A program made the translations under genes and the position numbers. From IMG/VR virus record IMGVR_UViG_2531839332_000012: a stretch of 27,454 nucleotides of DNA; one strand, 5' to 3'. A model generated the notes under the pieces. That model did not search any database and was not told where the DNA came from. It saw only the letters and a program-made list of their open reading frames with translations. Of this stretch, positions 772-22,377 are shown one piece after another; positions within the stretch are counted from its first letter, which is position 1, and each line of letters begins with the position of its first letter. The DNA is from a virus. Its lineage: Duplodnaviria > Heunggongvirae > Uroviricota > Caudoviricetes.

Positions 772-1566
772 ATGAGCGAGAAATTAAAGATAGTCTATCG
801 CCCATTACAAGAATTGTCACCGTATGCGCACAACGCCAGGACGCACAGCCCTGAGCAGGTGGCACAACTGGTAGAAAGTATTAAGCAATTCGGCTGGACT
901 AATCCGGTGCTGATTGACGAAAAGGGCGAAATTATTGCGGGTCACGGTCGTGTTATGGCGGCTGAAATGCTCAAAATGGATTCTGTTCCGGTCATTGTTC
1001 TGTCTGGCCTGACGGATGAGCAGAAAAAGGCGTACCGCCTGGCAGATAATCGCCTGCCGATGAATGCTGGCTGGGATGAAGATCTGTTGCGGATGGAGCT
1101 GTCGGACCTAATCAATGCTGATTTTGATGTCTCCCTGACAGGCTTCATCCCGACAGAAATTGATGAACTGTTGACGGATGTTTTGCCCGGTACAGGAAAT
1201 GAGGAGGAGCCGTATACGACGAAAATTGATACGCCTGTTTATGAGCCGTCGGGCGGTAAACCGGATATCAGTGAACTGTACGACGATACGAAAACTCAGG
1301 AGCTGATCAGCCGGATACGTTCGGCGTCCCTTGATCCTGATATTGAGAAATTCCTCCTGTGTGCGGCAGAACGTCACACAGTGTTTAATTTCAGCAGAAT
1401 TGCGGACTATTACGCTCATGCCCCCGCTGAAATTCAGTGCCTTTTCGAGGAGTCGGCGCTGGTGATCATTGATTATCAGCAGGCTATTGAAAATGGATTT
1501 GTCCGAATGACGCAGCGCATGGTGGAGATCATGCATGGCGGGGAGGAGGAGGAGGAATATGCGTGA
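772..1566 (+). CDS. ParB-like nuclease domain (ParB/Srx N-terminal domain) phage protein with an uncharacterised C-terminal domain
   Basis: 264-aa ORF. The N-terminus (YRPLQELSPYAHNARTHSPEQVAQLVESIKQFGWTNPVLIDEKGEIIAGHGRVMAA) fits the ParB N-terminal fold. The C-terminus ends in a poly-Glu tail (GGEEEEEYA). Its stop overlaps the next start (ATGCGTGA). Confidence 0.8.
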   Translation: MSEKLKIVYRPLQELSPYAHNARTHSPEQVAQLVESIKQFGWTNPVLIDEKGEIIAGHGRVMAAEMLKMDSVPVIVLSGLTDEQKKAYRLADNRLPMNAGWDEDLLRMELSDLINADFDVSLTGFIPTEIDELLTDVLPGTGNEEEPYTTKIDTPVYEPSGGKPDISELYDDTKTQELISRIRSASLDPDIEKFLLCAAERHTVFNFSRIADYYAHAPAEIQCLFEESALVIIDYQQAIENGFVRMTQRMVEIMHGGEEEEEYA

Positions 1567-2491
1567 TGATTTTTGCGCCTTTATTCTGACTCACGGGCGA
1601 CCGGACAAAGTTCTGACTTACCGGACGTTGCGTCGTGCTGGCTATACCGGGAAAATTTTTATCGTTGTTGATGATGAAGATAAGACACGGCATCAGTACA
1701 TGGCTGAATTTGGTGAACAGGTGCTGGTATTTTCCAAAGCCGATATTGCCAGTCGTTTTGACGAAGCCGATAATTTTGGTGATCGCCGCTCAATTTTTTA
1801 CGCCCGTAATGCCTGTTTCGACCTGGCAAAACTGGTCGGGTGTAAATACTTCATTCAGCTCGATGATGATTATCACGAGTTCCAGTTTCGGGTGGATCGC
1901 AACTATGACCAGGCCTATTTCCCGATAAGGAAACTGGATGCGATCCTTTCTGAAATGCTGGCGTATTACGAATCAATACCCGCGCTTTCCATCGCTATGT
2001 CGCAGGGCGGGGATTTTCTTGGTGACAATGGCGGCCATGCTTCGTGGGTGAAACGCAAGGCAATGAACAGCTTTATCTGTTCGGTTGATCGACCGTTCTC
2101 ATTCATGGGGCGCATTAACGAGGATGTGAATACGTACACGAATCTCGGTCGCTGTGGTGAATTGTTTATGACGATCGGTGCTGTCCAGTTAGGGCAGAAA
2201 CAGACGCAGAAAAACAGCGGCGGAATGACCGAGCTGTATCTGGATTCCGGAACCTACGTTAAAAGTTTTTACTCCGTCATGTATTCGCCGTCGTGCGTAA
2301 AAATCTCACTGATGGGTGCCAGCCATAAACGCATTCACCATCAGGTCACCTGGAACAACGCTGCAGTAAAAATCCTTCACGAAAAATACAGGAAGAAGAC
2401 ACCCTGCATATCAATGGGGGTGACAAATGATTCCGTATTCGAAAGTCGAGTCTCTGGCAGCGTGCCGGATGACTGCACAACAAATCGCTGA
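1559..2491 (+). CDS. Putative GT-A-fold (DXD motif) glycosyltransferase-like phage protein; function unknown
   Basis: ATG at 1559 is preceded by GGAGGAGGAGGAGGAA and overlaps the upstream stop. The product has an N-terminal strand CAFILTHGRPD, acidic IVVDDEDK, and a DXD-like FIQLDDDY motif typical of nucleotide-sugar transferases. The fold assignment is from motifs only. Confidence 0.6.
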   Translation: MRDDFCAFILTHGRPDKVLTYRTLRRAGYTGKIFIVVDDEDKTRHQYMAEFGEQVLVFSKADIASRFDEADNFGDRRSIFYARNACFDLAKLVGCKYFIQLDDDYHEFQFRVDRNYDQAYFPIRKLDAILSEMLAYYESIPALSIAMSQGGDFLGDNGGHASWVKRKAMNSFICSVDRPFSFMGRINEDVNTYTNLGRCGELFMTIGAVQLGQKQTQKNSGGMTELYLDSGTYVKSFYSVMYSPSCVKISLMGASHKRIHHQVTWNNAAVKILHEKYRKKTPCISMGVTNDSVFESRVSGSVPDDCTTNR

Positions 2492-2681: not shown

Positions 2682-3776
2682 ATGAGCAGACCGGACTGGG
2701 GGGCGTTGCAGCAGGAGTATATTGCTGAATACACCCGCTCCGGTATATCTCCGGTGGCATGGTGTGAAGCAAGGGGACTGAACTACGCAACAGCCCGTCG
2801 TTACATCAAAAAAACTCCGAAAAATGCGCAGAAAGAAATGCGCAAAACTGCGCAAAAAAGTGCGCGAAAAAAAACTGCGCAGACTGCGCAAAGGCAGAAC
2901 AGAAAATCTCAGAAAAAAAAGGCTGTATCCGATGCACTCCTGATTGAGGGGGACACGGAAGAAATTTCGTTCTGCCCCGATGAATTCGGTATTTCTGACC
3001 AGCAGGCAAAATTCGCCATGTTGGTTGCTCAGGGGAAAAAGCCGACAGAGGCATACCGACTGGCTGGTTATGAGGGGCAAGGTGCGACAGCTAACAGCAA
3101 CGCCAGCCGTATGCTTAGAAATGCCAGGGTTTATCGTGCTATCAGCTACTTCCGCAATCAGTACCAGAAACGCTATACCGCAGACCTGGATTTACTGGTG
3201 AGCCAGTTGATGGCCATTGTCCAGGCCGACCCCAATCAGTTGGCACAATTTCGCCGTGTTAACTGCCGTTATTGCTGGGGCGAGAATCATCTCTACCAGT
3301 GGCGTGATATTGCAGAATTCGATAAGGCTGCGGCACAGGCCTCCAGAGATGGTAAACCCGAGCCGGAATATGGAGGCCTCGGCTTTGTTGATAACGCCAT
3401 ACCCAATCCTGATTGCCCGAAGTGCTGCGGTGAGGGAACAGGACAGCTTTATATGGCTGATACCACACTGCTTGATGGGGATGCGCGGCAATTATATGCA
3501 GGGTCAAAGCTCGGAAAATACGGTGTTGAGATCCTGCTGGAGGATAAGGCTGCCGCCCGGCGTGAATTGTTGCGTTTGCTTTCTGCTGGCGGGGCATTAT
3601 GTGCAGATAAGCGGCTACAGGAACTGGAAATTGAACGGCGCAGAATAGAGAACCAGAAGCTGCGCAAAGAGATCGAAACGGTGGAGGATAATGAACATCC
3701 CCAGCCTGTGGCGATCAATATTAATGTGGTTGATGCCAGATTAAGGAGTGATGAAGATGATCTCTCCGACGCTTAA
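2682..3776 (+). CDS. Terminase small subunit (Terminase_2-like) with extra N-terminal basic repeat and C-terminal Cys-rich segment
   Basis: 364 aa. It has an N-terminal HTH-like segment (GISPVAWCEARGLNYATARRYI) and a second HTH motif AYRLAGYEGQGATANSNASRMLRNARVYRAI characteristic of small terminase subunits. It sits immediately upstream of and overlaps the large terminase gene. Confidence 0.8.
   Translation: MSRPDWGALQQEYIAEYTRSGISPVAWCEARGLNYATARRYIKKTPKNAQKEMRKTAQKSARKKTAQTAQRQNRKSQKKKAVSDALLIEGDTEEISFCPDEFGISDQQAKFAMLVAQGKKPTEAYRLAGYEGQGATANSNASRMLRNARVYRAISYFRNQYQKRYTADLDLLVSQLMAIVQADPNQLAQFRRVNCRYCWGENHLYQWRDIAEFDKAAAQASRDGKPEPEYGGLGFVDNAIPNPDCPKCCGEGTGQLYMADTTLLDGDARQLYAGSKLGKYGVEILLEDKAAARRELLRLLSAGGALCADKRLQELEIERRRIENQKLRKEIETVEDNEHPQPVAININVVDARLRSDEDDLSDA
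2821..2893 (+). repeat. Cluster of six TGCGC(A/G) direct repeats inside the 5' part of the small terminase gene (candidate pac / TerS-binding site)
   Basis: TGCGCA occurs at 2825, 2839, 2849, 2876 and 2885, and TGCGCG at 2861, spaced 9-15 nt apart. The same region encodes the basic repeat KNAQKEMRKTAQKSARKKTAQTAQRQ. Confidence 0.4.
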
Positions 3777-11467: not shown

Positions 11468-12430
11468 GTGAGTTCAGGTGCAAAGGTTATCTCGGCATTT
11501 ATCCGGGAGACGGTTGCAGGCACTACGCCAGCAAGTGGTGACTGGAGTTTATTAAAACGCACAAGCTGGGGAGTAAAACCCACCCAGAATAAAGGCGAAA
11601 ATAATGAGATTGGTGGCTCCCGGATGGCTCAGGGGGCGACGCCTGGCACTGTGGATGTCGGCGGTGATGTTGGTACCAAATTTCGCTGGGGTCAACATGA
11701 TGATTTTCTTGCATCCTGTTTCGGCGCGGAATGGTCAGGCGATTCTCTGACAATGGGGAATGAGCGAATAACATTTTCTCTGGCGACCTATGCGTCCGAT
11801 GTCGGAATTGCCTCTGTCGTCAGAGGAGCGCAGGTTGGCTCATGGAAAATGCAGATCCCTAACGACGGCGATATTACAGCGACCGTAACCTTTGCCGGAC
11901 TGGACTGGGAATCAAAGGCCGATGATACGAATTTTATCAAAGGCGAACCTGTGGATAGTGCAGGAAAGCTACGTTATTCGTTTAAGGAGGTTTCAGCAGT
12001 AAGCCTGAATGGTGTTGCCGGAGGTAACGGTTTTTGTATCGACAGTTTTGATATTCAGTTCGATAACAAACTCCAGACACAGCGTTGTATCGGGACTGGC
12101 TCGCCTTATGCAGGAGCAAATATTCCGACTACTTTTACACCGTCCGGTACGGTGACGCTTTCATGGTCTAAAGCCGCGTGGGAAATCTGGAGTAAAACAC
12201 TGACTGGAGAAACAGTTCCGTTCAGCTTCACGCTTTCGAATGGAGAGGGGGCATACACTTTCAGTTTCCCGAAGGTTCAGGTGTCAGGTGAATGGCCTGA
12301 TGGGGGTAATAGCGACATTATCCAGGTTCAATTGAGCATTACCGCAGCAGATGAAGCACCTACGATAACCAGAAAAAAAAATTCCCCGGCTGCCGTGATC
12401 GCAAAAGCCAGTGCTGAGGCGATTAGTTGA
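11468..12430 (+). CDS. Major tail (tube) protein
   Basis: GTG start preceded by AGGAGG at 11457-11462. The 320-aa product is Gly/Ser/Thr-rich and lies directly upstream of the G/GT chaperone pair and tape measure. Confidence 0.7.
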   Translation: MSSGAKVISAFIRETVAGTTPASGDWSLLKRTSWGVKPTQNKGENNEIGGSRMAQGATPGTVDVGGDVGTKFRWGQHDDFLASCFGAEWSGDSLTMGNERITFSLATYASDVGIASVVRGAQVGSWKMQIPNDGDITATVTFAGLDWESKADDTNFIKGEPVDSAGKLRYSFKEVSAVSLNGVAGGNGFCIDSFDIQFDNKLQTQRCIGTGSPYAGANIPTTFTPSGTVTLSWSKAAWEIWSKTLTGETVPFSFTLSNGEGAYTFSFPKVQVSGEWPDGGNSDIIQVQLSITAADEAPTITRKKNSPAAVIAKASAEAIS

Positions 12431-12478: not shown

Positions 12479-12940
12479 ATGAGGTTATGGATGTTTATTC
12501 TTAATCAGAAAATTATCATTGGTGTAGAACGCTGGTTTACGCCAATGAAGGACTTAAAACCTGTAGACGGGTTAAAACTGTTGGTGGCAAGCAGCGATAA
12601 CGATCAGTATCGCTCCCGTAATGCATTAATCCGTCGCCACATTGAGAAAATGGATGCCAGTTTGCACGTCGGAACGAAGGAGTTTGATATTTCAAAGGTT
12701 TCCGAGGTGGATTCTGTTGATGATTTACTCATTGATAATGCCGCTCGTTATCTGCTGAAAGACTGGAAAGGGGTTGGTGAACTGGTTAATGGTGTTGAGG
12801 TTGCACTGGAATATACGGCAGAACGAGGGATCGCGCTGCTTAAGCAGAATCCAGAGTTGTACTGGCAGATCCTTGCAGAAGCAGCCAGCATCGCCCAGGG
12901 TAAAGAGCAGCAGAAGCAGGATACGATAAAAAAGCCATAG
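12479..12940 (+). CDS. Tail assembly chaperone (lambda gpG analogue)
   Basis: ATG 12479 is preceded by GGGGGA. The ~153-aa acidic product ends just after an A AAA AAG slippery heptamer, and the -1 frame stays open to 13248. It sits between the major tail and tape measure genes. Confidence 0.75.
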   Translation: MRLWMFILNQKIIIGVERWFTPMKDLKPVDGLKLLVASSDNDQYRSRNALIRRHIEKMDASLHVGTKEFDISKVSEVDSVDDLLIDNAARYLLKDWKGVGELVNGVEVALEYTAERGIALLKQNPELYWQILAEAASIAQGKEQQKQDTIKKP

Positions 12941-13248
12941 CTGCCCAGCGGTGGTTATCGGAGTTCGGGGGAGAAAGGGGGGAAAAGGCAAGATGGAAGC
13001 GAGAAAAACTCAGGTTGCCACCGATACCGGAACCAGAAATAGACCCGGTGCTTAAGGAGTTGTTGTACGCCTATTCGGTAATATCCCGTGCCCGACGTTA
13101 TGCTGGAATGGCTGGGGTGCCTTTGCCTTTATCTCTGACAGAGATAAATGAATATTTAACCACTCATCCGGTATTGATTGAGCGCGATGAATTTGAAGCA
13201 GTGATCTTTGCACTGGATGACCAGTATTTTCAGGAGCAGTGTGTGTAG
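12479..13248 (+). CDS. Tail assembly chaperone frameshift product (lambda gpGT analogue), made by -1 ribosomal slippage at 12928-12934
   Basis: The -1 frame is free of stops from the heptamer at 12928-12934 through 13246-13248. The predicted junction is ...QDTIKK then KAIAAQRWLSEFGGERGEKARWKREKLRLPPIPEPEIDPV... Coordinates are the outer limits of the two joined segments (12479..12934 and 12934..13248). Confidence 0.6.
12928..12934 (+). promoter_or_regulatory. Slippery heptamer A AAA AAG for programmed -1 frameshifting
   Basis: The zero-frame codons AAA (12929-12931) and AAG (12932-12934) are preceded by A at 12928. This is the same heptamer class as E. coli dnaX. The G-frame stop follows 1 codon later. 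Confidence 0.6.
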
Positions 13249-13369
13249 TTGTTAATTACGTACACTCTGTTACAGAGATGTGATGGTGTCTTTAATTAAA
13301 TCGATGATGCTCCTGGAGAAAAGCATTGCGTGGCCTCGTAATCGCTATATCTACTATTATGTCGCCTGA

Positions 13370-13396
13370 AACCCACTTCGCGGTGGGTTTTTTGTT
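13370..13396 (+). terminator. Intrinsic terminator-like hairpin just upstream of the tape measure gene
   Basis: aacccac-ttcgcg-gtgggtt forms a 7-bp stem followed by TTTTTGTTG. It ends ~18 nt before the tape measure ATG at 13414, whose SD GGAG lies at 13401-13404. Confidence 0.45.
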
Positions 13397-13413
13397 GTCA
13401 GGAGTTTTAATAA

Positions 13414-16400
13414 ATGGCAGAGCAAACCTCGCGTCTCGCAATAATTATTGATAGCACTGGAGCGAAAAATAATGCTGACAATCTGACCTCCTCATTAGTC
13501 AAAATGACGCAGGCTGGGGAAACTGCTGCAAATAGCGCAGGGAAAGTGACTAAGGCAACAGAAGATGAGAAGAACGCGCTCGCAAAATTAAAAGCAGCTA
13601 TTGATCCAGTTGGTGCCGCAATTGATACTGTCGGTCGACGCTATTCTGAATTAAAGAAATTTTTCGATAAAGGGCTTATTGATAAAGAAGAATATGAATT
13701 TCTTGTCCGTAAACTTAATGAAACCACAGAGGAATTGAGCGGGGTTGCGCAAGCGCAGAGAGAAGCCGAGAAGGCCGGAAAACTTGCTGCCGCCCAGCAG
13801 GAAGCGCAGGCTCAGGCCTTTCAAAGAATGCTGGACAAGATCGACCCTCTGGCTGCGGCGCTAAGAAATCTTGAACAACAGCATGATGAACTTAATGCTG
13901 CGTTTGCATCCGGGAAAATAAATGGTTCTCAGTTTGAGAATTATAGCCGAAAAATACAGGAAACACGGCGAGAGCTTACCGGAGAGGCTCAGGCAGAGCG
14001 AGAAGCAGCAAAAGCGCATGATGAACAGGTTGTTGCTTTGCAACGTCTGATTGCTCAACTTGATCCTGTCGGAACTGCTTTTAATCGTCTGGTAGAACAA
14101 CAGAAACAGCTCAATGAAGCAAAAGCTAAGGGGATGCTTTCTCCTGAAATGTATGAGGAGCTTTCTGGAAAACTTCGTGCTATGCGGAGTGAGCTTGAGG
14201 TTACTCAATCACAATTAAGCAAAACCGGAATGTCGGCAAAACAAACGGCTTTTGCTATGCGCATGTTGCCTGCACAAATGACGGATATTGTTGTTGGGTT
14301 GTCCACTGGTCAGTCGCCATTTATGGTGTTAATGCAGCAGGGCGGCCAGCTAAAAGATATGTTCGGTGGGATTGGCCCGGCGATCAAAGGGGTAGGTTCT
14401 TATGTGCTGGGATTAATTAATCCTTTTACCCTGGCCGCAGCAGCCGTTGGGGTCTTAGGACTGGCTTACTATAAAGGCTCTCAGGAGCAGGACGAATTTA
14501 ATAAATCTCTTATTCTTACCGGAAATCAGTTGGGGACAACCAGCGGGCAATTGGGCGATTTAGCTCAACGTGCCGGGAATGCGGCTGATTCGACAACTGG
14601 TGCTGCGGCGGCAGTATTAAATCAGCTTGTGCGTTCGGGAAAGGTAGCGAGCAGTTCGCTGGAGCAAGTGACGACAGCGATAGTAAAAACGAGCGAAGTA
14701 ACAGGAATATCAACCGAACAACTGGTTAATGACTTCAATGAAATTGCAAAGGATCCTGTCAGTGCCATATCAAAACTTAATGATCAGTACCATTTTCTGA
14801 CACTTGCGACTTATAACCAGATTAAGGCGCTACAGGATGAAGGGAACCAGCAGGAGGCCGCCCGCATTGCGACAGAAGAATACTCATCCTCAATGATCCA
14901 GCGCACCAACCAGATTAAAGAAAATCTTGGTTATCTTGAGACTGCATGGAAAGCTGTCGCAGACTCCGCAAAATGGGCATGGGATTCCATGCTGGATATT
15001 GGCCGTGAGGCCTCCCTTGATCAAAAAATCTCAGATGTTCTCCGTCAAATTGATGAAATAGAAAAAAATACCCGATCCGGAGTTTTCGGGTTAGGTGGCA
15101 TTGGAGATGGCGGAGCTCAAAATAAAAGGCTGGCACGATTAAAGCAGCAATTGGGCGTACTTCAAGCAGAAAAAATTGCTCAGGACGTACTAAATTCATC
15201 AATAAACGATTACAACAAGCGACAACAGGAAGGAATTGAACTCAGACAGAGAGCAGATGCCTTTTCAAAACAATATCAGACCCGGGAGCAGCAGAGAGCT
15301 AGTGAACTTGCAAAACTGGAAAAGCTAAAGAATCAGTATTCAAAGGAAGAATATAATAATCTTATCGCTCAAATAAATGAGCGTTATAAAGATCCAAAGC
15401 AACCAAAGGCGAAAGATTATTCTGATGATGCAGCCCAACGAATGATTGATCATCTGAATCAACAGAATGCGTTACTAAGTTCACAAGCTGAGTTGACCGT
15501 TAAATTAAGTTCCTCTGAACAGGAACTGGTTAAGTGGCGTCAGCGGATTGCCGACCTAGAGTCACGACCATCATCGAAATTAACCCAGGATCAGAAATCG
15601 CTTCTCTTACACCGGGAAGAAATAACCACGTTGATGGAGAAAAATGTTGCGATTGAAAAAAATAACAGGCTAATCAAGGAATCCGCCGAAATAACAGCAT
15701 GGCGTGATTCATTGCAGGCTTCGATTGATAATCGTCAGCAGGGGTATGATATTCAGATTGCTGGTTATGGGGTTGGCGATAAAAATCAGCAACGCCAGCA
15801 GGAATTACTGCGGATTGAACATGGATATAACAATCAGCGTCTGCAACTTGAACGTGACTATGCAGATAAATCCCGTGGAATGTCAGATCATGTTTTTCAA
15901 GAGAAAATGCAGGCTCTGAATGATGCTCTGGAACGGGAAAAAGAAATTGTCAGACAGAAAAACGAGCAGCTCGATATTCAGGCAGGAGACTGGGTTAGTG
16001 GTGCCTCCCAGGGATTCAATAACTGGCTGGATGACACTAAGGATATCAGTGAGCAGATAAAATCAACCACGACTCAGATGTTTGATGGGATGACCGATGC
16101 GCTGGGTGATTTTGTCACGACAGGCAAGGCAAATTTTCGTTCTTTCGCTACTTCCGTGATTTCGGATCTTAGTCGAATAGCATTAAAGGCTTCAATTACT
16201 GGGATTTTCGACAGCATTAGTAACAGTTCTTCTGGGGGGATTTTAGGAACTATCGGGAGTGCTATTAGTAAATTTATTCCGAATGCAAAGGGCGGTGTTT
16301 ATGAGTCTCCGTCATTGAGCACGTATTCGAACGGTATTTATGATTCCCCGCAATTTTTTGCTTTTGCAAAAGGGGCTGGTGTTTTTGGTGAGGCTGGACC

Positions 16401-16647
16401 GGAAGCCATTATGCCATTAACACGAACTTCCGATGGTTCTCTTGGTGTCAGAGCTATTAATAGTAAAAGTGGTAATGGAGGCGGAGATATTACCTATGCC
16501 CCTGTATACCAAATCACTATTCAAAATGACGGCCAGAATGGAGAGATTGGCCCTCAGGCAATAAAAGCACTTATGGGGATGGTTGATCAGCGGGTGCAGG
16601 GCAATCTGTTAAATATGCGACGTGATGGGGGAATGTTAAGTGGCTAA
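13414..16647 (+). CDS. Tail tape measure protein
   Basis: 1077-aa protein with a long coiled-coil Ala/Gln/Glu-rich N-terminal half and hydrophobic mid-region ([35 protein letters not shown]), at the canonical position after G/GT. Confidence 0.9.
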
Positions 16648-16978: not shown

Positions 16979-17652
16979 TGCAGGACATACAACAGGAAAC
17001 GCTGAATGAATGCATTCGTGCGGAGCAGTCGGCCAGCGTGGTGCTCTGGGAAATCGACCTGACCGAGGTAGGCGGGGATCGCTACTTTTTCTGTAATGAG
17101 CAGAACGAAAAAGGTGAGTCTGTCACCTGGCAGAGTCGGCAGTATCAGGCCTATCCCATTCAGGGGAGTGGATTTGAGATGAACGGCAAGGGCAGTGCTG
17201 CCCGTCCGACACTGACGGTCTCTAACCTGCACGGCATGATCACCGGGATGGCGGAAGATCTGCAGAGTCTGGTCGGCGGAACGGTGGTCCGGCGTAAGGT
17301 TTACGCCCGTTTCTGGATGCGGTGAACTTCGTCAACGGAAACAGAGCCGATCCGGAGCAGGAGGTGATAGCCGCTGGCGCATGAGCAGTGCAGCGAACTG
17401 AGCGCGGTAGTGCCTCTTTGTACTGTCCACGCCGACGAAACGGATGGGCGTTTTTCCGGGCGATCATGCTGGCAAACCTGCACCTGGACCTATCGCGGGA
17501 GAGTGCGGTTATACGGTCCGGCGTCGCGGATGAATATGACCAGCCACGTCCGATATCACGAAGGATAAATGCAGCAAATGCCTGAGGGTGTAAGTTCGCA
17601 ATAAGTCGGCAACTTTGGCGGCTTCCTTTCCATTAACAAACTTTCGCAGTAA
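16978..17652 (+). pseudogene. L: Minor tail protein L (lambda gpL homologue), frameshifted in this sequence
   Basis: The N-terminus [33 protein letters not shown] is lambda L-like, but the frame stops at 17325 after ...VYARFWMR. The homologous sequence continues in another frame (AVNFVNGN...), implying a 1-nt loss in ttctggatgcgg at ~17311, with further shifts downstream. Confidence 0.75.
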
Positions 17653-17657
17653 ATCCC

Positions 17658-18285
17658 ATGACACAGACAGAATCAGCGATTCTGGCGCACGCCCGGCGAT
17701 GTGCGCCAGCGGAGTCGTGCGGCTTCGTGGTAAGCACGCCGGAGGGGGAAAGATATTTTCCCTGCGTGAATATCTCCGGTGAGCCGGAGGCGTATTTCCG
17801 TATGTCGCCGGAAGACTGGCTGAGGCAGAAATGCAGGGTGAGATTGTGGCGCTGGTCCACAGCCACCCCGGTGGTCTGCCCTGGCTGAGTGAGGCCGACC
17901 GGCGGCTGCAGGTGCAGAGTGATTTGCCGTGGTGGCTGGTCTGCCGGGGGACGATTCATAAATTCCGCTGTGTGCCGCATCTCACCGGGCGGCGCTTTGA
18001 GCACGGGGTGACGGACTGTTACACGCTGTTCCGGGATGCTTACCATCTGGCGGGGATTGAGATGCCGGATTTTCATCGCGGGGATGACTGGTGGCGTAAC
18101 GGTCAGAATCTCTATCTGGATAATCTGGAGGCCACAGGGCTGTATCAGGTGCCGTTGTCAGCGGCGCAGCCGGGCGATGTGCTGCTGTGCTGTTTTGGTT
18201 CATCGGTGCCGAATCATGCCGCATTTACTGGGGACGCGAGCTGCTGCACCATATTCCTGAACAACTGAGCAAACGAGAGAGGTAA
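17658..18285 (+). pseudogene. K: Tail assembly protein K (lambda gpK homologue), frameshifted in this sequence
   Basis: Split between ORF 17658..17888 (MTQTESAILAHARRCAPAESCGFVV...) and ORF 17831..18268 (MQGEIVALVHSHPGGLPWLSEADRR..., with HxH and Cys motifs of the K family), with another shift near the 3' end. Confidence 0.75.
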
Positions 18286-18292
18286 CCGACAA

Positions 18293-18907
18293 ATGGCAGC
18301 GACGCACACACTCCCTCTGGCGTCACCGGGCATGGCCGCATCTGCCTTTACGGGGATTTACAACGATTTGGCGCCGCATCGACCTTCGGTGAAAACGGGG
18401 CGAAGCCATCCGGGCGCTGGCCACAGTCCCGGCTTTCGTCAGAAACTGAGACGGCTGGTACAGGTCGCATTGCCGGGCGTGATGCAGGTGAAACCGAATT
18501 TCTGCCCGTCTTAATGAGCCGCTGGAAATGGTGCCGTGATCCATATCGTGCCGCGTCTGGGGCAAAAGTGGCGGTGTGTTTCAGGTGTGCTGGGGGCGGC
18601 GTTATTGCGGTGGCATGGTGGAACCCTGTGGGCTGGCTGGGTGCCGCGGCTGTATCGGCATGTTCGGGCCAGTATGATCTGGCGGTGTGGCGCAGATGCT
18701 GGCACCGAAAGCCAGGACGTCCACGGCAGCCAGTACAGATAACGGCAAACAGAACACCTATTTTTCCTCACTGGATAACATGGTTGCCCAGGGCAATGTT
18801 CTGCCTGTTCTGTACGGTGAAATGCGCGTGGGGTCCGCGTGGTTTCTCAGGAGATCAGCACGGCAGACGAAGGGGACGGTGGTCAGGTTGTGGTGATTGG
18901 TCGCTGA
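18293..18907 (+). pseudogene. I: Tail assembly protein I (lambda gpI homologue), multiply frameshifted in this sequence
   Basis: Starts MAATHTLPLASPGM, then homologous segments appear in different frames (IHIVPR..., IAVAWWNPVGWLGAAAVS..., AQMLAPKAR...TDNGKQNTYFSSLDNMVAQGNVLPVLYGEMRVGS, ending QVVVIGR). Confidence 0.7.
18604..18713 (+). repeat. Copy A of a ~120-bp duplicated gene I segment (deletion-bearing copy)
   Basis: The first 55 nt are identical to 27335-27389. The remainder matches 27390-27454 apart from about 10 missing nucleotides at several positions. Confidence 0.7.
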
Positions 18908-18967
18908 TGCAAAATGTTTTATGTGAAACCGCCTCCGGGCGGTTTTGTCGTTTATGGAGCATGACGA

Positions 18968-21900
18968 ATGGGTAAAGGCAGCAGTAAGGGGCATACCCCG
19001 CGCGAAGCGAAGGACAACCTGAAGTCCACGCAGCTGCTGAGTGTGATCGATGCCATCAGCGAAGGGCCGGTTGAAGGTCCGGTGGATGGATTAAAAAGCG
19101 TGCTGCTGAACAGTACGCCGGTGCTGGACAGTGAGGGGAATACCAACATCTCCGGTGTCACGGTGGTGTTCCGGGCCGGTGAGCAGGAGCAGACACCGCC
19201 GGAGGGATTTGAATCCTCCGGTCCGAGACGGTGCTGGGTACGGAAGTGAAATACGACACGCCGATCACCGGACCATCACGTCGCAAACATCGACCGTCTG
19301 CGCTTTACCTTCGGTGTGCAGGCACTGGTGGAAACCACCTCAAAGGGGGACCGGAATCCGTCGGAAGTCCGCCTGCTGGTTCAGATACAGCGTAATGGTG
19401 GCTGGGTGACGGAAAAAGACATCACCATTAAGGCAAAACCACCTCGCAGTATCTGGCTCGGTGGTGGTGGGTAACCTGCCGCCGCGCCCGTTCAATATCC
19501 GGATGCGCAGGATGACGCCGGACAGCACCACAGACCAGCTGCAGAACAAAACGCTCTGGTCGTCATACACCGAAATCATCGATGTGAAACAGTGCTACCC
19601 GAACACGGCACTGGTCGGCGTCAGGTGGATTCGGAGCAGTTCGGCAGCCAGCAGGTGAGCCGTAATTATCATCTGCGCGGGCGTATTCTGCAGGTGCCGT
19701 CGAACTATAACCCGCAGACTCGGCAATACAGCGGTATCTGGGACGGAACGTTTAAGCCAGCATACAGCAAAACATGGCCTGGTGTTGTGGGATATGCTGA
19801 CCCATCCCGCTACGGCATGGGGAAACGTCTTGGTGCGCGGATGTGAAAATGGGCGCTGTATGTCATCGGCCAGTACTGCGACCAGTCGTGCCGGACGGCT
19901 TTGGCGGCACGGAGCCGCGCATCACCTGTAATGCGTACCTGACCACACAGCGCAAGGCGTGGGATGTGCTCAGTGATTTCTGCTCGGCGATGCGCTGTAT
20001 GCCGGTATGGAACGGGCAGACGCTGAGTTCGTGCAGGACCGACCTCGATAAGGTGTGGACCTATAACCGCAGTAATGTGGTGATGCCGGATGATGGGCGC
20101 CGTTCCGCTACAGCTTCAGCGCCCTGAAGGACCGCCATAATGCCGTTGAGGTGAACTGGATTGACCCGAAAACGGCTGGGAGACGGCGACAGAGCTTGTG
20201 AGAACCAGGCCATTGCCCGTTACGGTCGTAACGTCACGAAGATGGATGCTTTGGCTGTACCAGCCGGGGGCAGGCCACCGCGCCGGGCTGTGGCTGATTA
20301 AAACGAACTGCTGGAACGCAGACCGTGGACTTCAGCGTGGGTGCGAAGGGCTTCGCCATGTACCGGGGATGTCATTGAAATCTGCGATGATGACTATGCC
20401 GGTATCAGCACCGGGGCGCGTGCTGGCGGTGAACAGCCAGACCCGGACGCTGACGCTCGACCGTGAAATCACGCTGCCATCTCCGGACCACGCTGATAAG
20501 CCTGGTTGACGGAAGTGGAATCCGGTCAGCGTGGAGGTCAGTCCGTCACCGACGGCGTGAAGGTAAAGTGAGCCGGTTCCTGACGGCGTTGCCGATACAG
20601 CGTGTGGGGGCTGAAGCTGCCGACGCTGCGCCAGCGCCTGTTCCGCTGGTGAGTATCCGTGAGAACGAGACGGACGTATGCCATCACGCGTGCAGCATGT
20701 ACCGAAAAGAAGCCATCGTGGATAACGGGGCGCACTTTGACGGACCGAGCGGCACGGTGAATGGGTCACGCCGCCGCGTGCAGCACTGACGCCGAAGTCA
20801 CCGCAGACAGCGGGGAATACAGGTGCTGGCGCTGGGACACGCCGAAGGTGGTGAAGGGGTGAGCTTTGCTTCGCCTGACCGTGGCAGCGGAGAGGCAGTG
20901 AGCGGCTGGTCAGACGGCCGGACGACGGAAACCACTACCGCTTCACGCACTGGCCGGGAACTACAGGCTGACGTCCGGGCGGTAAATGCGTGGGGCAGCA
21001 GGGCGACCGGCATCGGTATCGTTCCGGATTGCCGCACCGGCAGCGCCGTCGCGGATTGAGCTGACGCCGGGCTATTTTCAGATAACCGCCACGCCGCATC
21101 TTGCGGTTTATGATCCGACGGTACAGTTTGAGTTCTGGTTCTCGGAAAAGCGGATTGCGGATATCAGGCAGGTTGAAACCACAGCCCGCTATCTTGGTAC
21201 GGCGCTGTACTGGATAGCCGCCAGTATCAATATCAAACCGGGCCATGATTATTATTTTTACGTTCGCAGTGTGAACACCGTTGGCAAATCGGCATTCGTG
21301 GAGGCTGTCGGTCAGCCGAGTGATGATGCATCAGGCTATCTGGATTTTTTCAAAGGCGAGATAGGGAAAACCCATCTGGCTCAGGAGCTGTGGACGCAGA
21401 TTGATAACGGTCAGCTTGCGCCTGACCTGGCTGAAATCAGGACGTCCATTACGGATGTCAGCAATGAAATCACACAGACCGTCAATAAGAAACTGGAAGA
21501 CCAGAGTGCAGCGATCCAGCAGATACAGAAGGTTCAGGTTGATACAAATAATAACCTGAACAGCATGTGGGCTGTGAAGCTGCAGCAGATGCAGGACGGA
21601 CGCCTTTATATTGCGGGTATCGGTGCCGGTATTGAGAACACCCCTGACGGCATGCAGAGTCAGGTGCTGCTGGCGGCAGACAGGATTGCGATGATTAATC
21701 CTGCGAATGGCAACACAAAGCCGATGTTTGTTGGTCAGGGCGATCAGATATTCATGAATGAAGTGTTCCTGAAACGCCTGACGGCTCCCACCATTACCAG
21801 CGGCGGTAATCCTCCGGCATTTTCCCTGACACCGGACGGACAGCTGACGGCGAAAAATGCCGATATCAGTGGCAGTGTGAATGCGAACTCCGGGACGCTC

Positions 21901-22377
21901 AACAACGTCACGATTAACGAGAACTGTCGGGTTCTGGGAAAACTGTCCGCCAACCAGATTGAAGGCGATCTCGTTAAAACAGTGGGCAAAGCTTTCCCCC
22001 GGGACTCCCGTGCACCGGAACGGTGGCCATCAGGGACCATCACCGTCAGGGTTTATGACGATCAGCCGTTTGACCGGCAGATTGTTATTCCGGCGGTGGC
22101 ATTCAGCGGCGCTAAACATGAGAGGGAGAATAACGATATTTATTCGTCATGCCGCCTGATAGTACGGAAAAACGGTGCTGAAATTTATAACCGTACCGCG
22201 CTGGATAATACGCTGATTTACAGTGGCGTTATTGATATGCCTGCCGGTCGCGGCCACATGACGCTGGAGTTTTCGGTGTCATCATGGCTGGTAAATAACT
22301 GGTATCCCACAGCAAGTATCAGCGATTTGCTGGTTGTGGTGATGAAGAAAGCCACCGCAGGCATCAGTATCAGCTGA
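18968..22377 (+). pseudogene. J: Tail tip / host specificity protein J (lambda gpJ homologue); N-terminal ~2 kb multiply frameshifted, C-terminal 463 codons intact
   Basis: Starts MGKGSSKGHTPREAKDNLKSTQLLSVIDAISEGP. The first 2 kb is then fragmented into at least 8 ORFs across frames (18968, 19131, 19461, 19592, 19843, 20198, 20463, 20823), before one continuous frame 20986..22377. Confidence 0.8.
20986..22377 (+). CDS. J: Intact C-terminal ORF of J (receptor-recognition region); probably part of full-length J rather than a separate gene
   Basis: 463 codons without interruption, starting at ...[46 protein letters not shown]. This is the largest ORF an automated annotator would call here. Confidence 0.45.

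What the first reader, a model, noticed from the sequence alone, without database searches (positions are those of the whole stretch)
12920..13248. Programmed -1 frameshift (gpG/gpGT-type) in the tail assembly chaperone, using an A AAA AAG heptamer
The G-like ORF ends at 12938-12940, one codon after the heptamer at 12928-12934. The -1 frame is free of stop codons from the heptamer to 13246-13248 (checked codon by codon) and adds ~105 residues. A G/GT chaperone pair made by -1 slippage between the major tail and tape measure genes is a conserved feature of long-tailed phages. The heptamer here is the dnaX-type A AAA AAG rather than lambda's G GGA AAG. The ORF track shows only the tail end of this extension (13015..13248).
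Basis: partly seen in the sequence, partly recalled or inferred. Interest (0 to 1): 0.4.

Follow-up and report, generated by a model that had tools for sequence, protein, structure and literature searches.

The report
Tail chaperone G/GT frameshift, Rac-type prophage
This is the usual low-level -1 ribosomal frameshift that long-tailed phages use to make a short and a long tail assembly chaperone from one gene, here in a Rac-type E. coli prophage (gene ydaY); it is real and conserved but ordinary, and simply missing from public annotation.

Summary
A AAA AAG (12928-12934) lies in phase in the chaperone ORF (12491-12940; stop TAG 12938-12940). The -1 frame is open only from 12904 and runs 104 codons to TAG 13246-13248.

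The gene order is tail tube, G, T, tape measure. G matches PHROG 313 "tail assembly chaperone" (E 1e-45) and is 99.9% identical at the DNA level to the E. coli K-12 Rac prophage gene ydaY over the part K-12 retains.

The heptamer is identical in 52 of 53 distinct relatives (Escherichia, Shigella, Citrobacter, Klebsiella and metagenomic sequences). Meanwhile the 0-frame stop moves between 3, 21 and 105 nt downstream of it.

The -1 frame is under purifying selection from its first codon (dN/dS 0.14-0.22). In one Citrobacter-type relative (L076) it has no start-like codon for 58 codons.

Distant relatives keep the same -1 junction with other slip sites: G GGA AAG (Acinetobacter TRS1, deposited as a joined CDS), G GAA AAG (Pseudomonas) and C GCA AAG-stop (Erwinia).

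No conserved stimulatory hairpin or Shine-Dalgarno element was found.

Verdict: a genuine gpG/gpGT-type programmed -1 frameshift giving G (149 aa) and GT (252 aa). The kind is well known, and from memory this instance was flagged in 2003. RefSeq and GenBank records do not annotate it. Interest is low.

The parts
11468..12430 (+). Tail tube (major tail) gene, immediately upstream of the chaperone
   Evidence: Pfam Phage_tube_2, E 9e-32. PGAP calls it 'phage tail tube protein' in near-identical E. coli genomes.
12491..12940 (+). G: tail assembly chaperone, YdaY family, 149 aa, 16.9 kDa. An alternative in-frame ATG lies at 12479. Stop is TAG 12938-12940.
   Evidence: PHROG 313 'Tail assembly chaperone', E 1.4e-45. 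GAGG at 12481-12484 lies 6 nt before ATG 12491, and homologues start MFIL/MIIL/MLII. The DNA is 99.9% identical to the K-12 Rac ydaY locus over the part K-12 retains. Size.
12928..12934 (+). Slippery heptamer A AAA AAG in X XXY YYZ phase; proposed site of tandem -1 slippage of tRNA-Lys
   Evidence: Read directly from the sequence. Identical in 52 of 53 distinct G+T sequences. Aligns with the junction Lys that is invariant in Klebsiella, Erwinia, Pseudomonas and Acinetobacter relatives.
12904..12940 (+). The only stretch where the 0 frame and the -1 frame are both open; the shift must occur here
   Evidence: The -1 frame is open from 12904 to 13248; the 0 frame stops at 12938-12940.
12934..13248 (+). 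T extension: 104 codons in the -1 frame plus TAG 13246-13248. The GT fusion is join(12491..12934, 12934..13248), 252 aa, 28.8 kDa, with junction ...QDTIKK/AIAAQRW...
   Evidence: Translation. dN/dS 0.14-0.22 in this frame. The first 27 codons are conserved in this frame only, and the first start-like codon is TTG at codon 27. PHROG 1189, E 3e-36, and a weak match to the C-terminal part of the PHROG 313 profile. 38% identical to the TRS1 GT extension. Size.
13414..16647 (+). Tape measure protein gene, downstream partner of the chaperone pair
   Evidence: Pfam TMP_2 (E 2e-81), Tape_meas_lam_C and TMP_4.

Best explanation
G and T form a gpG/gpGT-type tail assembly chaperone pair of a Rac-type siphophage/prophage.

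Most ribosomes translate G (12491-12937) and stop at TAG 12938, giving a 149-aa, 16.9-kDa chaperone. A small fraction slip with AAA in the P site and AAG in the A site. Both tRNA-Lys move back one base to AAA AAA (12928-12933). Decoding resumes at GCC (12934) and continues for 104 codons to TAG 13246. The product is a 252-aa, 28.8-kDa GT fusion with the junction ...DTIKK-AIAAQRW...

By analogy with lambda, many G copies and a few GT copies coat the tape measure protein through the shared G part. The T part recruits the tail tube protein so that it polymerises around the tape measure. Neither protein ends up in the virion.

Shown here: the anatomy, the synteny, the conservation of the site and of the frame arrangement, the coding selection on the -1 frame, and homology to annotated chaperones.

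Inferred: that slippage occurs, its level, and the roles of G and T. I expect a level of a few per cent or less, because no conserved stimulator was found.
For: - Sequence anatomy.
- Gene order tube-G-T-TMP.
- G matches PHROG 313 'tail assembly chaperone', E 1e-45. The T part matches the C-terminal half of the same 258-position profile at E 0.009.
- The heptamer is invariant in 52 of 53 distinct sequences at 62-100% protein identity, while neighbouring codons vary (ATA/GTA, GAT ACG/GAA ACC, CCA/CCT/CCC). The 0-frame stop lies 3, 21 or 105 nt downstream of it in different lineages.
- T frame: dN/dS 0.14-0.22 at unsaturated distances, and substitutions concentrated at third positions.
- First 27 T codons: pN 0.17-0.21 against pS 0.76-1.1 in the T frame for the diverged (Citrobacter, Klebsiella, Flyfo) comparisons, whereas pN exceeds pS in the G frame in all but one of the ten comparisons.
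- First start-like codon in the T frame: codon 27 here, codons 38-58 in the Citrobacter, Klebsiella and Erwinia relatives.
- Gene callers produce only N-terminally ragged 'hypothetical' fragments for T.
- Distant relatives keep G and T in the 0/-1 relation with the junction at the same aligned Lys.
- TRS1 is deposited as a joined CDS, and its T part is 38% identical.
- Literature: lambda G/GT mechanism and the 30:1 ratio (PMC5009743); A AAA AAG and G GGA AAG are equally shifty (PMC4066793); an HK97-like chaperone cluster was measured at 6-7% (PMC3711429).
Against: - No protein-level or ribosome-profiling evidence was available.
- No conserved downstream structure: the consensus fold is only -3.7 kcal/mol with essentially no covariation. 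The window's own hairpin (12935-12961, -11.3 kcal/mol) starts 1 nt after the heptamer. The 80-nt region is not more stable than shuffles (z 0.9).
- The only Shine-Dalgarno-like element is AGGA (12918-12921), 6 nt upstream. It is confounded with Gln-Asp/Glu coding and is absent in the Flyfo relative.
- Without a stimulator the bare motif gave only 0.3% in reporters.
- There is no sequence match to lambda gpG/gpT Pfam families.
- AlphaFold models were too poor to test the fold.
- This copy may sit in a defective or badly assembled prophage, because the tail-tip genes downstream are riddled with 1-nt deletions.
Confidence: 0.9

Rival explanations
1. T is a separate small gene translated from its own internal start. 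Candidates are TTG 13015, or TTG 13060/13063 behind AAGGAG at 13054-13059, as gene callers annotate it. The heptamer would then be incidental.
For: ORF finders and deposited records-77-aa 'hypothetical proteins' here. An AAGGAG lies just upstream of two in-frame TTG codons.
Against: The 27 codons upstream of the first possible start are conserved as protein in the T frame only. That TTG is not conserved. In Citrobacter, Klebsiella and Erwinia relatives the first start-like codon is at codon 38-58, inside the conserved core. The AAGGAG-to-TTG spacing is 0-3 nt. The called fragments start at different places in different records.
Confidence: 0.04
2. The split is a mutation or sequencing error: a once continuous G-T gene broken by a 1-nt indel in the A run, in a decaying prophage.
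For: The same window carries about 70 single-base deletions at 17.2-19.3 kb. Rac is a defective prophage in K-12. A few relatives do have truncated T frames (L032, L034, L048), and one database protein (P0009) is an in-frame G-T fusion caused by a deletion.
Against: The identical 0/-1 arrangement occurs in 53 distinct sequences and in phages of five genera, including plaque-forming isolates. The region is gap-free against independent loci. A broken gene would not keep dN/dS near 0.15 downstream of the break.
Confidence: 0.02
3. The fusion arises by transcriptional slippage of RNA polymerase on the A run rather than by ribosomal slippage.
For: Homopolymeric A runs can cause RNA polymerase slippage (PMC3711429; PMC1088944 listed).
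Against: The run is only six A. Programmed transcriptional realignment is described for runs longer than 7 A. Relatives make the same junction at G GGA AAG, G GAA AAG and C GCA AAG, which contain only 3-4 A. The phase-specific conservation of X XXY YYZ fits tRNA re-pairing.
Confidence: 0.03

Closest known systems
Phage lambda gpG / gpGT (Levin, Hendrix and Casjens 1993; Xu, Hendrix and Duda 2004, 2013, 2014; summarised in PMC5009743)
   Same: Same position between the major tail and tape measure genes. Same -1 shift near the 3' end of G, yielding a longer fusion. The 0-frame stop lies close to the slip site. No strong stimulator is evident. The A-site codon AAG is read by tRNA-Lys.
   Different: The heptamer is A AAA AAG rather than G GGA AAG. 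There is no detectable sequence similarity to the lambda G/T Pfam families. G is 149 aa and T is 104 aa. A 165-nt spacer with a small ORF and a terminator-like hairpin separates T from the tape measure gene.
Acinetobacter phage vB_AbaS_TRS1 gp18/gp19 (NC_031098; chaperone deposited as a joined CDS)
   Same: Homologous T domain: 38% identity, pairwise E 4e-16. G is weakly similar (E 3e-4). Same synteny, and the same aligned junction Lys.
   Different: The only in-phase canonical heptamer in its overlap is G GGA AAG, 78 nt before the G stop. Several extra genes lie between GT and the tape measure gene.
E. coli O157 Sakai prophage Sp9 ECs1801 cluster 'A_AAA_AAG_25' (Sharma et al. 2014, PMC4066793, Table S4)
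   Same: An E. coli prophage tail assembly chaperone using A AAA AAG and giving a longer -1 product. The authors mark it as 'safely inferred' programmed frameshifting.
   Different: A different, lambda/HK97-like chaperone family (124 aa) in a lambdoid prophage. It is not the YdaY family.
E. coli dnaX tau/gamma frameshift
   Same: The same heptamer A AAA AAG and the same tRNA-Lys tandem slippage.
   Different: dnaX has an upstream Shine-Dalgarno element and a strong downstream hairpin, reaches about 50%, and gives a shorter product. Here no conserved stimulators were found and the product is longer.
E. coli K-12 Rac prophage ydaY (b1366)
   Same: The same gene: the K-12 locus covers 82% of the 1051-nt query window:12400-13450 at 99.9% identity, including the heptamer and T (L008/L009). 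From memory, not verifiable in the held library: Gurvich et al. 2003 (EMBO J 22:5941) named ydaY as a candidate for utilised A_AAA_AAG frameshifting.
   Different: K-12 ydaY lacks the first 33 codons because of the Rac deletion, and its tape measure gene is a fragment. The window has the full-length G and tape measure genes.

Membership tests
gpG/gpGT-type tail assembly chaperone pair made by programmed -1 frameshifting | Located between the major tail (tube) gene and the tape measure gene | tested here: met
   Phage_tube_2 at 11468-12430; TMP_2/Tape_meas_lam_C at 13414-16647.
gpG/gpGT-type tail assembly chaperone pair made by programmed -1 frameshifting | Downstream ORF overlaps the 3' end of the upstream ORF in the -1 frame and has no start codon of its own | tested here: met
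   The -1 frame is open 12904-13248. The first start-like codon is 27 codons after the heptamer here and at codon 38-58 in the Citrobacter, Klebsiella and Erwinia relatives.
gpG/gpGT-type tail assembly chaperone pair made by programmed -1 frameshifting | A slippery X XXY YYZ sequence in phase within the overlap | tested here: met
   A AAA AAG at 12928-12934 in phase.
gpG/gpGT-type tail assembly chaperone pair made by programmed -1 frameshifting | Arrangement and slip site conserved among diverged relatives | tested here: met
   52 of 53 distinct sequences keep the heptamer. Erwinia, Pseudomonas and Acinetobacter relatives keep the -1 junction at the same aligned Lys with other P-site codons.
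gpG/gpGT-type tail assembly chaperone pair made by programmed -1 frameshifting | Extension frame evolves as protein-coding sequence | tested here: met
   dN/dS 0.14-0.22. Over the first 27 codons pN is well below pS in the T frame in every comparison, while pN exceeds pS in the G frame in all but one.
gpG/gpGT-type tail assembly chaperone pair made by programmed -1 frameshifting | Fusion protein made at a low fixed ratio, required for tail assembly, absent from virions | not testable with these tools
   Needs western blot or mass spectrometry, heptamer mutants and complementation.
gpG/gpGT-type tail assembly chaperone pair made by programmed -1 frameshifting | Tail assembly chaperone fold of the G part | tested here: inconclusive
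   The AlphaFold2 model of G has mean pLDDT 45 and that of T 63. BFVD Foldseek gave no match with E below 0.85. No PDB sequence relatives.
Lambda gpG / gpT sequence families (Pfam) | Significant match to the lambda-type G or T domain models | tested here: not met
   Pfam scan of the fusion gave only Phage_TAC_18 at 18 bits, below its cut-off of 27, on the T part. G carries PF27119 in precomputed tables; that family is not in the local Pfam copy.
PHROG 313 tail assembly chaperone | Profile match | tested here: met
   G matches at E 1.4e-45 over profile positions 20-149. T matches at E 0.009 over positions 173-246 of 258.
dnaX-type frameshift cassette | A AAA AAG heptamer | tested here: met
dnaX-type frameshift cassette | Upstream Shine-Dalgarno-like stimulator about 10 nt from the site | tested here: inconclusive
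   Only AGGA is present, 6 nt upstream. It is conserved in most relatives but confounded with Gln-Asp/Glu codons, and it is absent in the Flyfo relative.
dnaX-type frameshift cassette | Conserved downstream stem-loop stimulator | tested here: not met
   RNAalifold consensus -3.7 kcal/mol with 6 pairs. The local hairpin in the window starts 1 nt after the site and is not conserved.

The most novel reading that the evidence does not exclude
Across this chaperone family the only nucleotides kept at the aligned junction are the tetramer A_AAG. The P-site codon turns over: AAA in Escherichia, Citrobacter and Klebsiella; GGA in Acinetobacter TRS1; GAA in Pseudomonas phiPSA1 and Aurca01; GCA followed directly by a stop in Erwinia Gungnir39. 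If the Pseudomonas and Erwinia phages really make GT at these non-canonical sites, the family is a natural series in which tandem (heptamer) slippage has been replaced by single-tRNA A_AAG slippage. It could then be used to test how much P-site re-pairing matters in vivo.
Probability: 0.4. Interest if true: 0.3.

Novelty: already known. Interest (0 to 1): 0.12.

Why it matters
Mainly for annotation. About one in five complete E. coli genomes (1075 of 5426) carries this locus. RefSeq and GenBank label G with the truncated K-12 'YdaY' model and label T, if at all, as a 61-77-aa hypothetical protein. The correct description is a 149-aa chaperone plus a 252-aa frameshift fusion, join(12491..12934, 12934..13248). 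It adds nothing conceptually new to recoding or to tail assembly.

Tried and rejected
- Literature check of my recollection that Gurvich et al. 2003 named ydaY. The paper is not held, and no held paper mentions ydaY together with frameshifting. The claim stays marked as memory.
- ECs1801, the A_AAA_AAG_25 chaperone cluster of Sharma et al. 2014. It turned out to be a different, lambdoid Sp9 chaperone, not YdaY.
- NCBIfam gave no family for G or T.
- PDB sequence search gave nothing.
- AlphaFold2 models of G (pLDDT 45) and T (pLDDT 63) were too weak.
- Search for a stimulatory RNA structure. The single-sequence fold is not better than shuffles, and the alignment fold shows no conserved helix.
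- The AGCCA/UGGCU pairing seen by eye in the Citrobacter and Klebsiella sequences overlaps the heptamer itself and is broken in two lineages, so I dropped it.
- A second in-phase site, G GGA AAA, lies 33-51 nt upstream in some relatives. In this window it is GGT AAA, which places a TAA in the -1 frame, so it is not relevant here.

Full report
**Observation**

The chaperone-like ORF ends GAT ACG ATA AAA AAG CCA TAG. A AAA AAG therefore lies at 12928-12934 in X XXY YYZ phase, and the stop is at 12938-12940. Read from 12934, the -1 frame gives 104 sense codons (AIAAQRWLSEFGG...QYFQEQCV) before TAG 13246-13248. Upstream, the -1 frame is closed by a TAA, so the two frames are both open only over 12904-12940, and the heptamer lies inside this 37-nt stretch. 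The mechanical ORF list shows only 13015-13248.

The heptamer alone is not surprising: 9 copies in the window against 6.6 expected. A stop-free 104-codon -1 frame is surprising. It occurred in 33 of 20,000 shuffles and in 0 of 3,378 equivalent -1-frame windows inside the other genes of the window.

**Context**

The window is a Rac-type prophage. It starts in trkG, followed by a ynaK-like ParB gene. Then come terminase, portal, a Mu-F-like gene and a P22-like coat gene, and then a tail terminator and a tail tube gene (Phage_tube_2, 11468-12430). G/T follows, then a 1077-aa tape measure gene (13414-16647) and lambda-like M, L, K, I, J and fibre genes.

G most likely starts at ATG 12491. GAGG lies 6 nt upstream, and homologues begin MFIL/MIIL/MLII. 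G matches PHROG 313 'tail assembly chaperone' at E 1.4e-45. The T part matches PHROG 1189 and, weakly, the C-terminal part of the same 258-position PHROG 313 profile.

The region is 99.9% identical to Salmonella phage SPF_0923. It is present in 1075 of 5426 complete E. coli genomes. Over the part that K-12 retains it is 99.9% identical to the Rac ydaY locus.

No record annotates a frameshift. G is called 'protein YdaY', often with the truncated 119-aa K-12 model. T is either missing or a 61-77-aa hypothetical protein.

**Comparative evidence**

Eighty-eight related loci from genomes and viral contigs, together with the annotated phage records fetched afterwards, gave 53 distinct G+T sequences.

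- The heptamer is identical in 52 of the 53, while adjacent codons vary: ATA/GTA, GAT ACG/GAA ACC, CCA/CCT/CCC.
- The 0-frame stop lies 3, 21 or 105 nt after the heptamer in different lineages.
- The T frame shows dN/dS 0.14-0.22 at unsaturated distances and a third-position excess of substitutions.
- The 27 codons between the heptamer and the first possible start codon (TTG 13015) are decisive. In the diverged comparisons they show pN 0.17-0.21 against pS 0.76-1.1 in the T frame. In the G frame pN exceeds pS in all but one of the ten comparisons. In the Citrobacter, Klebsiella and Erwinia relatives the first start-like codon in the T frame lies at codon 38-58, inside the conserved core.
- Database gene calls for T are N-terminally ragged fragments without names.

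These results rule out independent initiation and a recent disabling mutation.

**Distant relatives**

A tblastn search with the predicted fusion found Klebsiella phages (65% identity), Erwinia phage Gungnir39 (55%), Pseudomonas syringae phages (32%) and Acinetobacter phages (T part only, 35-41%). Wherever both parts matched, G and T fell in two frames.

In every case examined T is in the -1 frame relative to G, and the junction aligns on one invariant Lys. The slip sites are:

| Lineage | Slip site |
|---|---|
| Klebsiella, Flyfo siphovirus | A AAA AAG |
| Acinetobacter TRS1 | G GGA AAG (deposited as a joined CDS) |
| Pseudomonas | G GAA AAG |
| Erwinia | C GCA AAG followed directly by TAA |

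The family-wide constant is therefore the A_AAG tetramer. The P-site codon varies.

**Mechanism**

The best-supported model is tandem -1 slippage of two tRNA-Lys from AAA AAG to AAA AAA, with decoding resuming at GCC 12934. This yields G (149 aa, 16.9 kDa) and GT (252 aa, 28.8 kDa).

The roles are inferred from lambda. The shared G part binds the tape measure protein, the T part recruits the tube protein, the G:GT ratio is about 30:1, and neither protein is in the virion (PMC5009743).

I found no conserved stimulator.

- The alignment fold is trivial.
- The window's own 11-bp hairpin starts 1 nt after the site, is not conserved, and is not better than shuffles.
- The upstream AGGA is 6 nt away and cannot be separated from coding constraint.

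Published reporter data give 0.29% for bare A AAA AAG and 0.28% for lambda's G GGA AAG, rising to about 4% and about 40% with IS911 and IS3 stimulators (PMC4066793). Two HK97-like chaperone genes were measured at 6-7% (PMC3711429). A low-percentage shift is therefore the expectation. Transcriptional slippage is unlikely on six A, and it cannot explain the relatives' sites.

**Comparison with known systems, and novelty**

This works like lambda G/GT and satisfies every sequence-level criterion for that class. It is not a sequence-family member of lambda gpG/gpT. It is a member of PHROG 313 and a homologue of the annotated TRS1 pair.

It shares only the heptamer with dnaX. A AAA AAG in an E. coli prophage tail chaperone is already on record for another family (cluster A_AAA_AAG_25, ECs1801).

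From memory, Gurvich et al. (EMBO J 2003) named ydaY itself as a candidate for utilised A_AAA_AAG frameshifting. I could not retrieve that paper, so that statement is unverified.

Either way the finding is a correct identification of a well-known device. Its value lies in fixing an annotation gap.

**Caveats**

There is no protein evidence. The structure predictions were too poor to test the chaperone fold. The tail-tip genes downstream in this particular window carry about 70 single-base deletions relative to relatives. This copy may therefore be defective, or that stretch may be badly assembled. The G/T region itself is clean.

Noticed in passing
window 17196-19282 (probably extending to about 21000): There are 74 indel columns relative to phage SPF_0923, nearly all single-base deletions in the window. 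Genes L, K, I and J are split into many short ORFs: L matches only positions 1-84 of 206, and J appears only as a C-terminal 463-aa ORF at 20986-22377. The best complete E. coli genome is only 96% identical here, against 99.8% at G/T. This looks like a low-quality assembly stretch or a decayed tail-tip module.
   Followed up: partly
window 13249-13413: The spacer between the T stop and the tape measure start holds a 28-codon ORF (13283-13369, MVSLIKSMMLLEKSIAWPRNRYIYYYVA). It is followed by a terminator-like hairpin (13368-13391) and a T run, inside what should be one late operon. In relatives about 93% identical, 13232-13380 does not align. Klebsiella, Pseudomonas and Acinetobacter relatives carry one to several extra ORFs in the same slot, so it looks like a variable cargo site.
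   Followed up: partly
window 12581-12940 versus 12491-12940: PGAP names G 'protein YdaY' using the 119-aa model derived from the N-terminally truncated K-12 gene (TTG 12581). The full-length 149-aa ORF with a GAGG ribosome-binding site starts at 12491 and is conserved across genera.
   Followed up: yes
window 2908-2921: A second in-phase A AAA AAG lies within a run of eight A in the ORF 2682-3776 (terminase small subunit-like). The -1 frame stops after 8 codons, so this is probably incidental.
   Followed up: partly
L063-L067, L007, L078, L080, L081 (relatives), equivalent to window 12896-12902: Some relatives have an additional in-phase G GGA AAA 33-51 nt upstream of the main heptamer, with the -1 frame open from there. 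In this window the same place reads GGT AAA, which creates the TAA that closes the -1 frame.
   Followed up: partly
L091 (Erwinia phage Gungnir39) 1986-1995; L090, L094, L095 (Pseudomonas phages): At the homologous G/T junction these phages lack a canonical heptamer: C GCA AAG TAA in Erwinia and CTG GAA AAG in Pseudomonas. Only the A_AAG tetramer is shared with the rest of the family.
   Followed up: partly
window 1535-2491: An ORF matching Pfam TAGT (TET-associated glycosyltransferase, E 6e-35) lies next to a ParB_N-domain ORF (772-1566) at the left end of the prophage, upstream of terminase. This may be a DNA-modification module.
   Followed up: no
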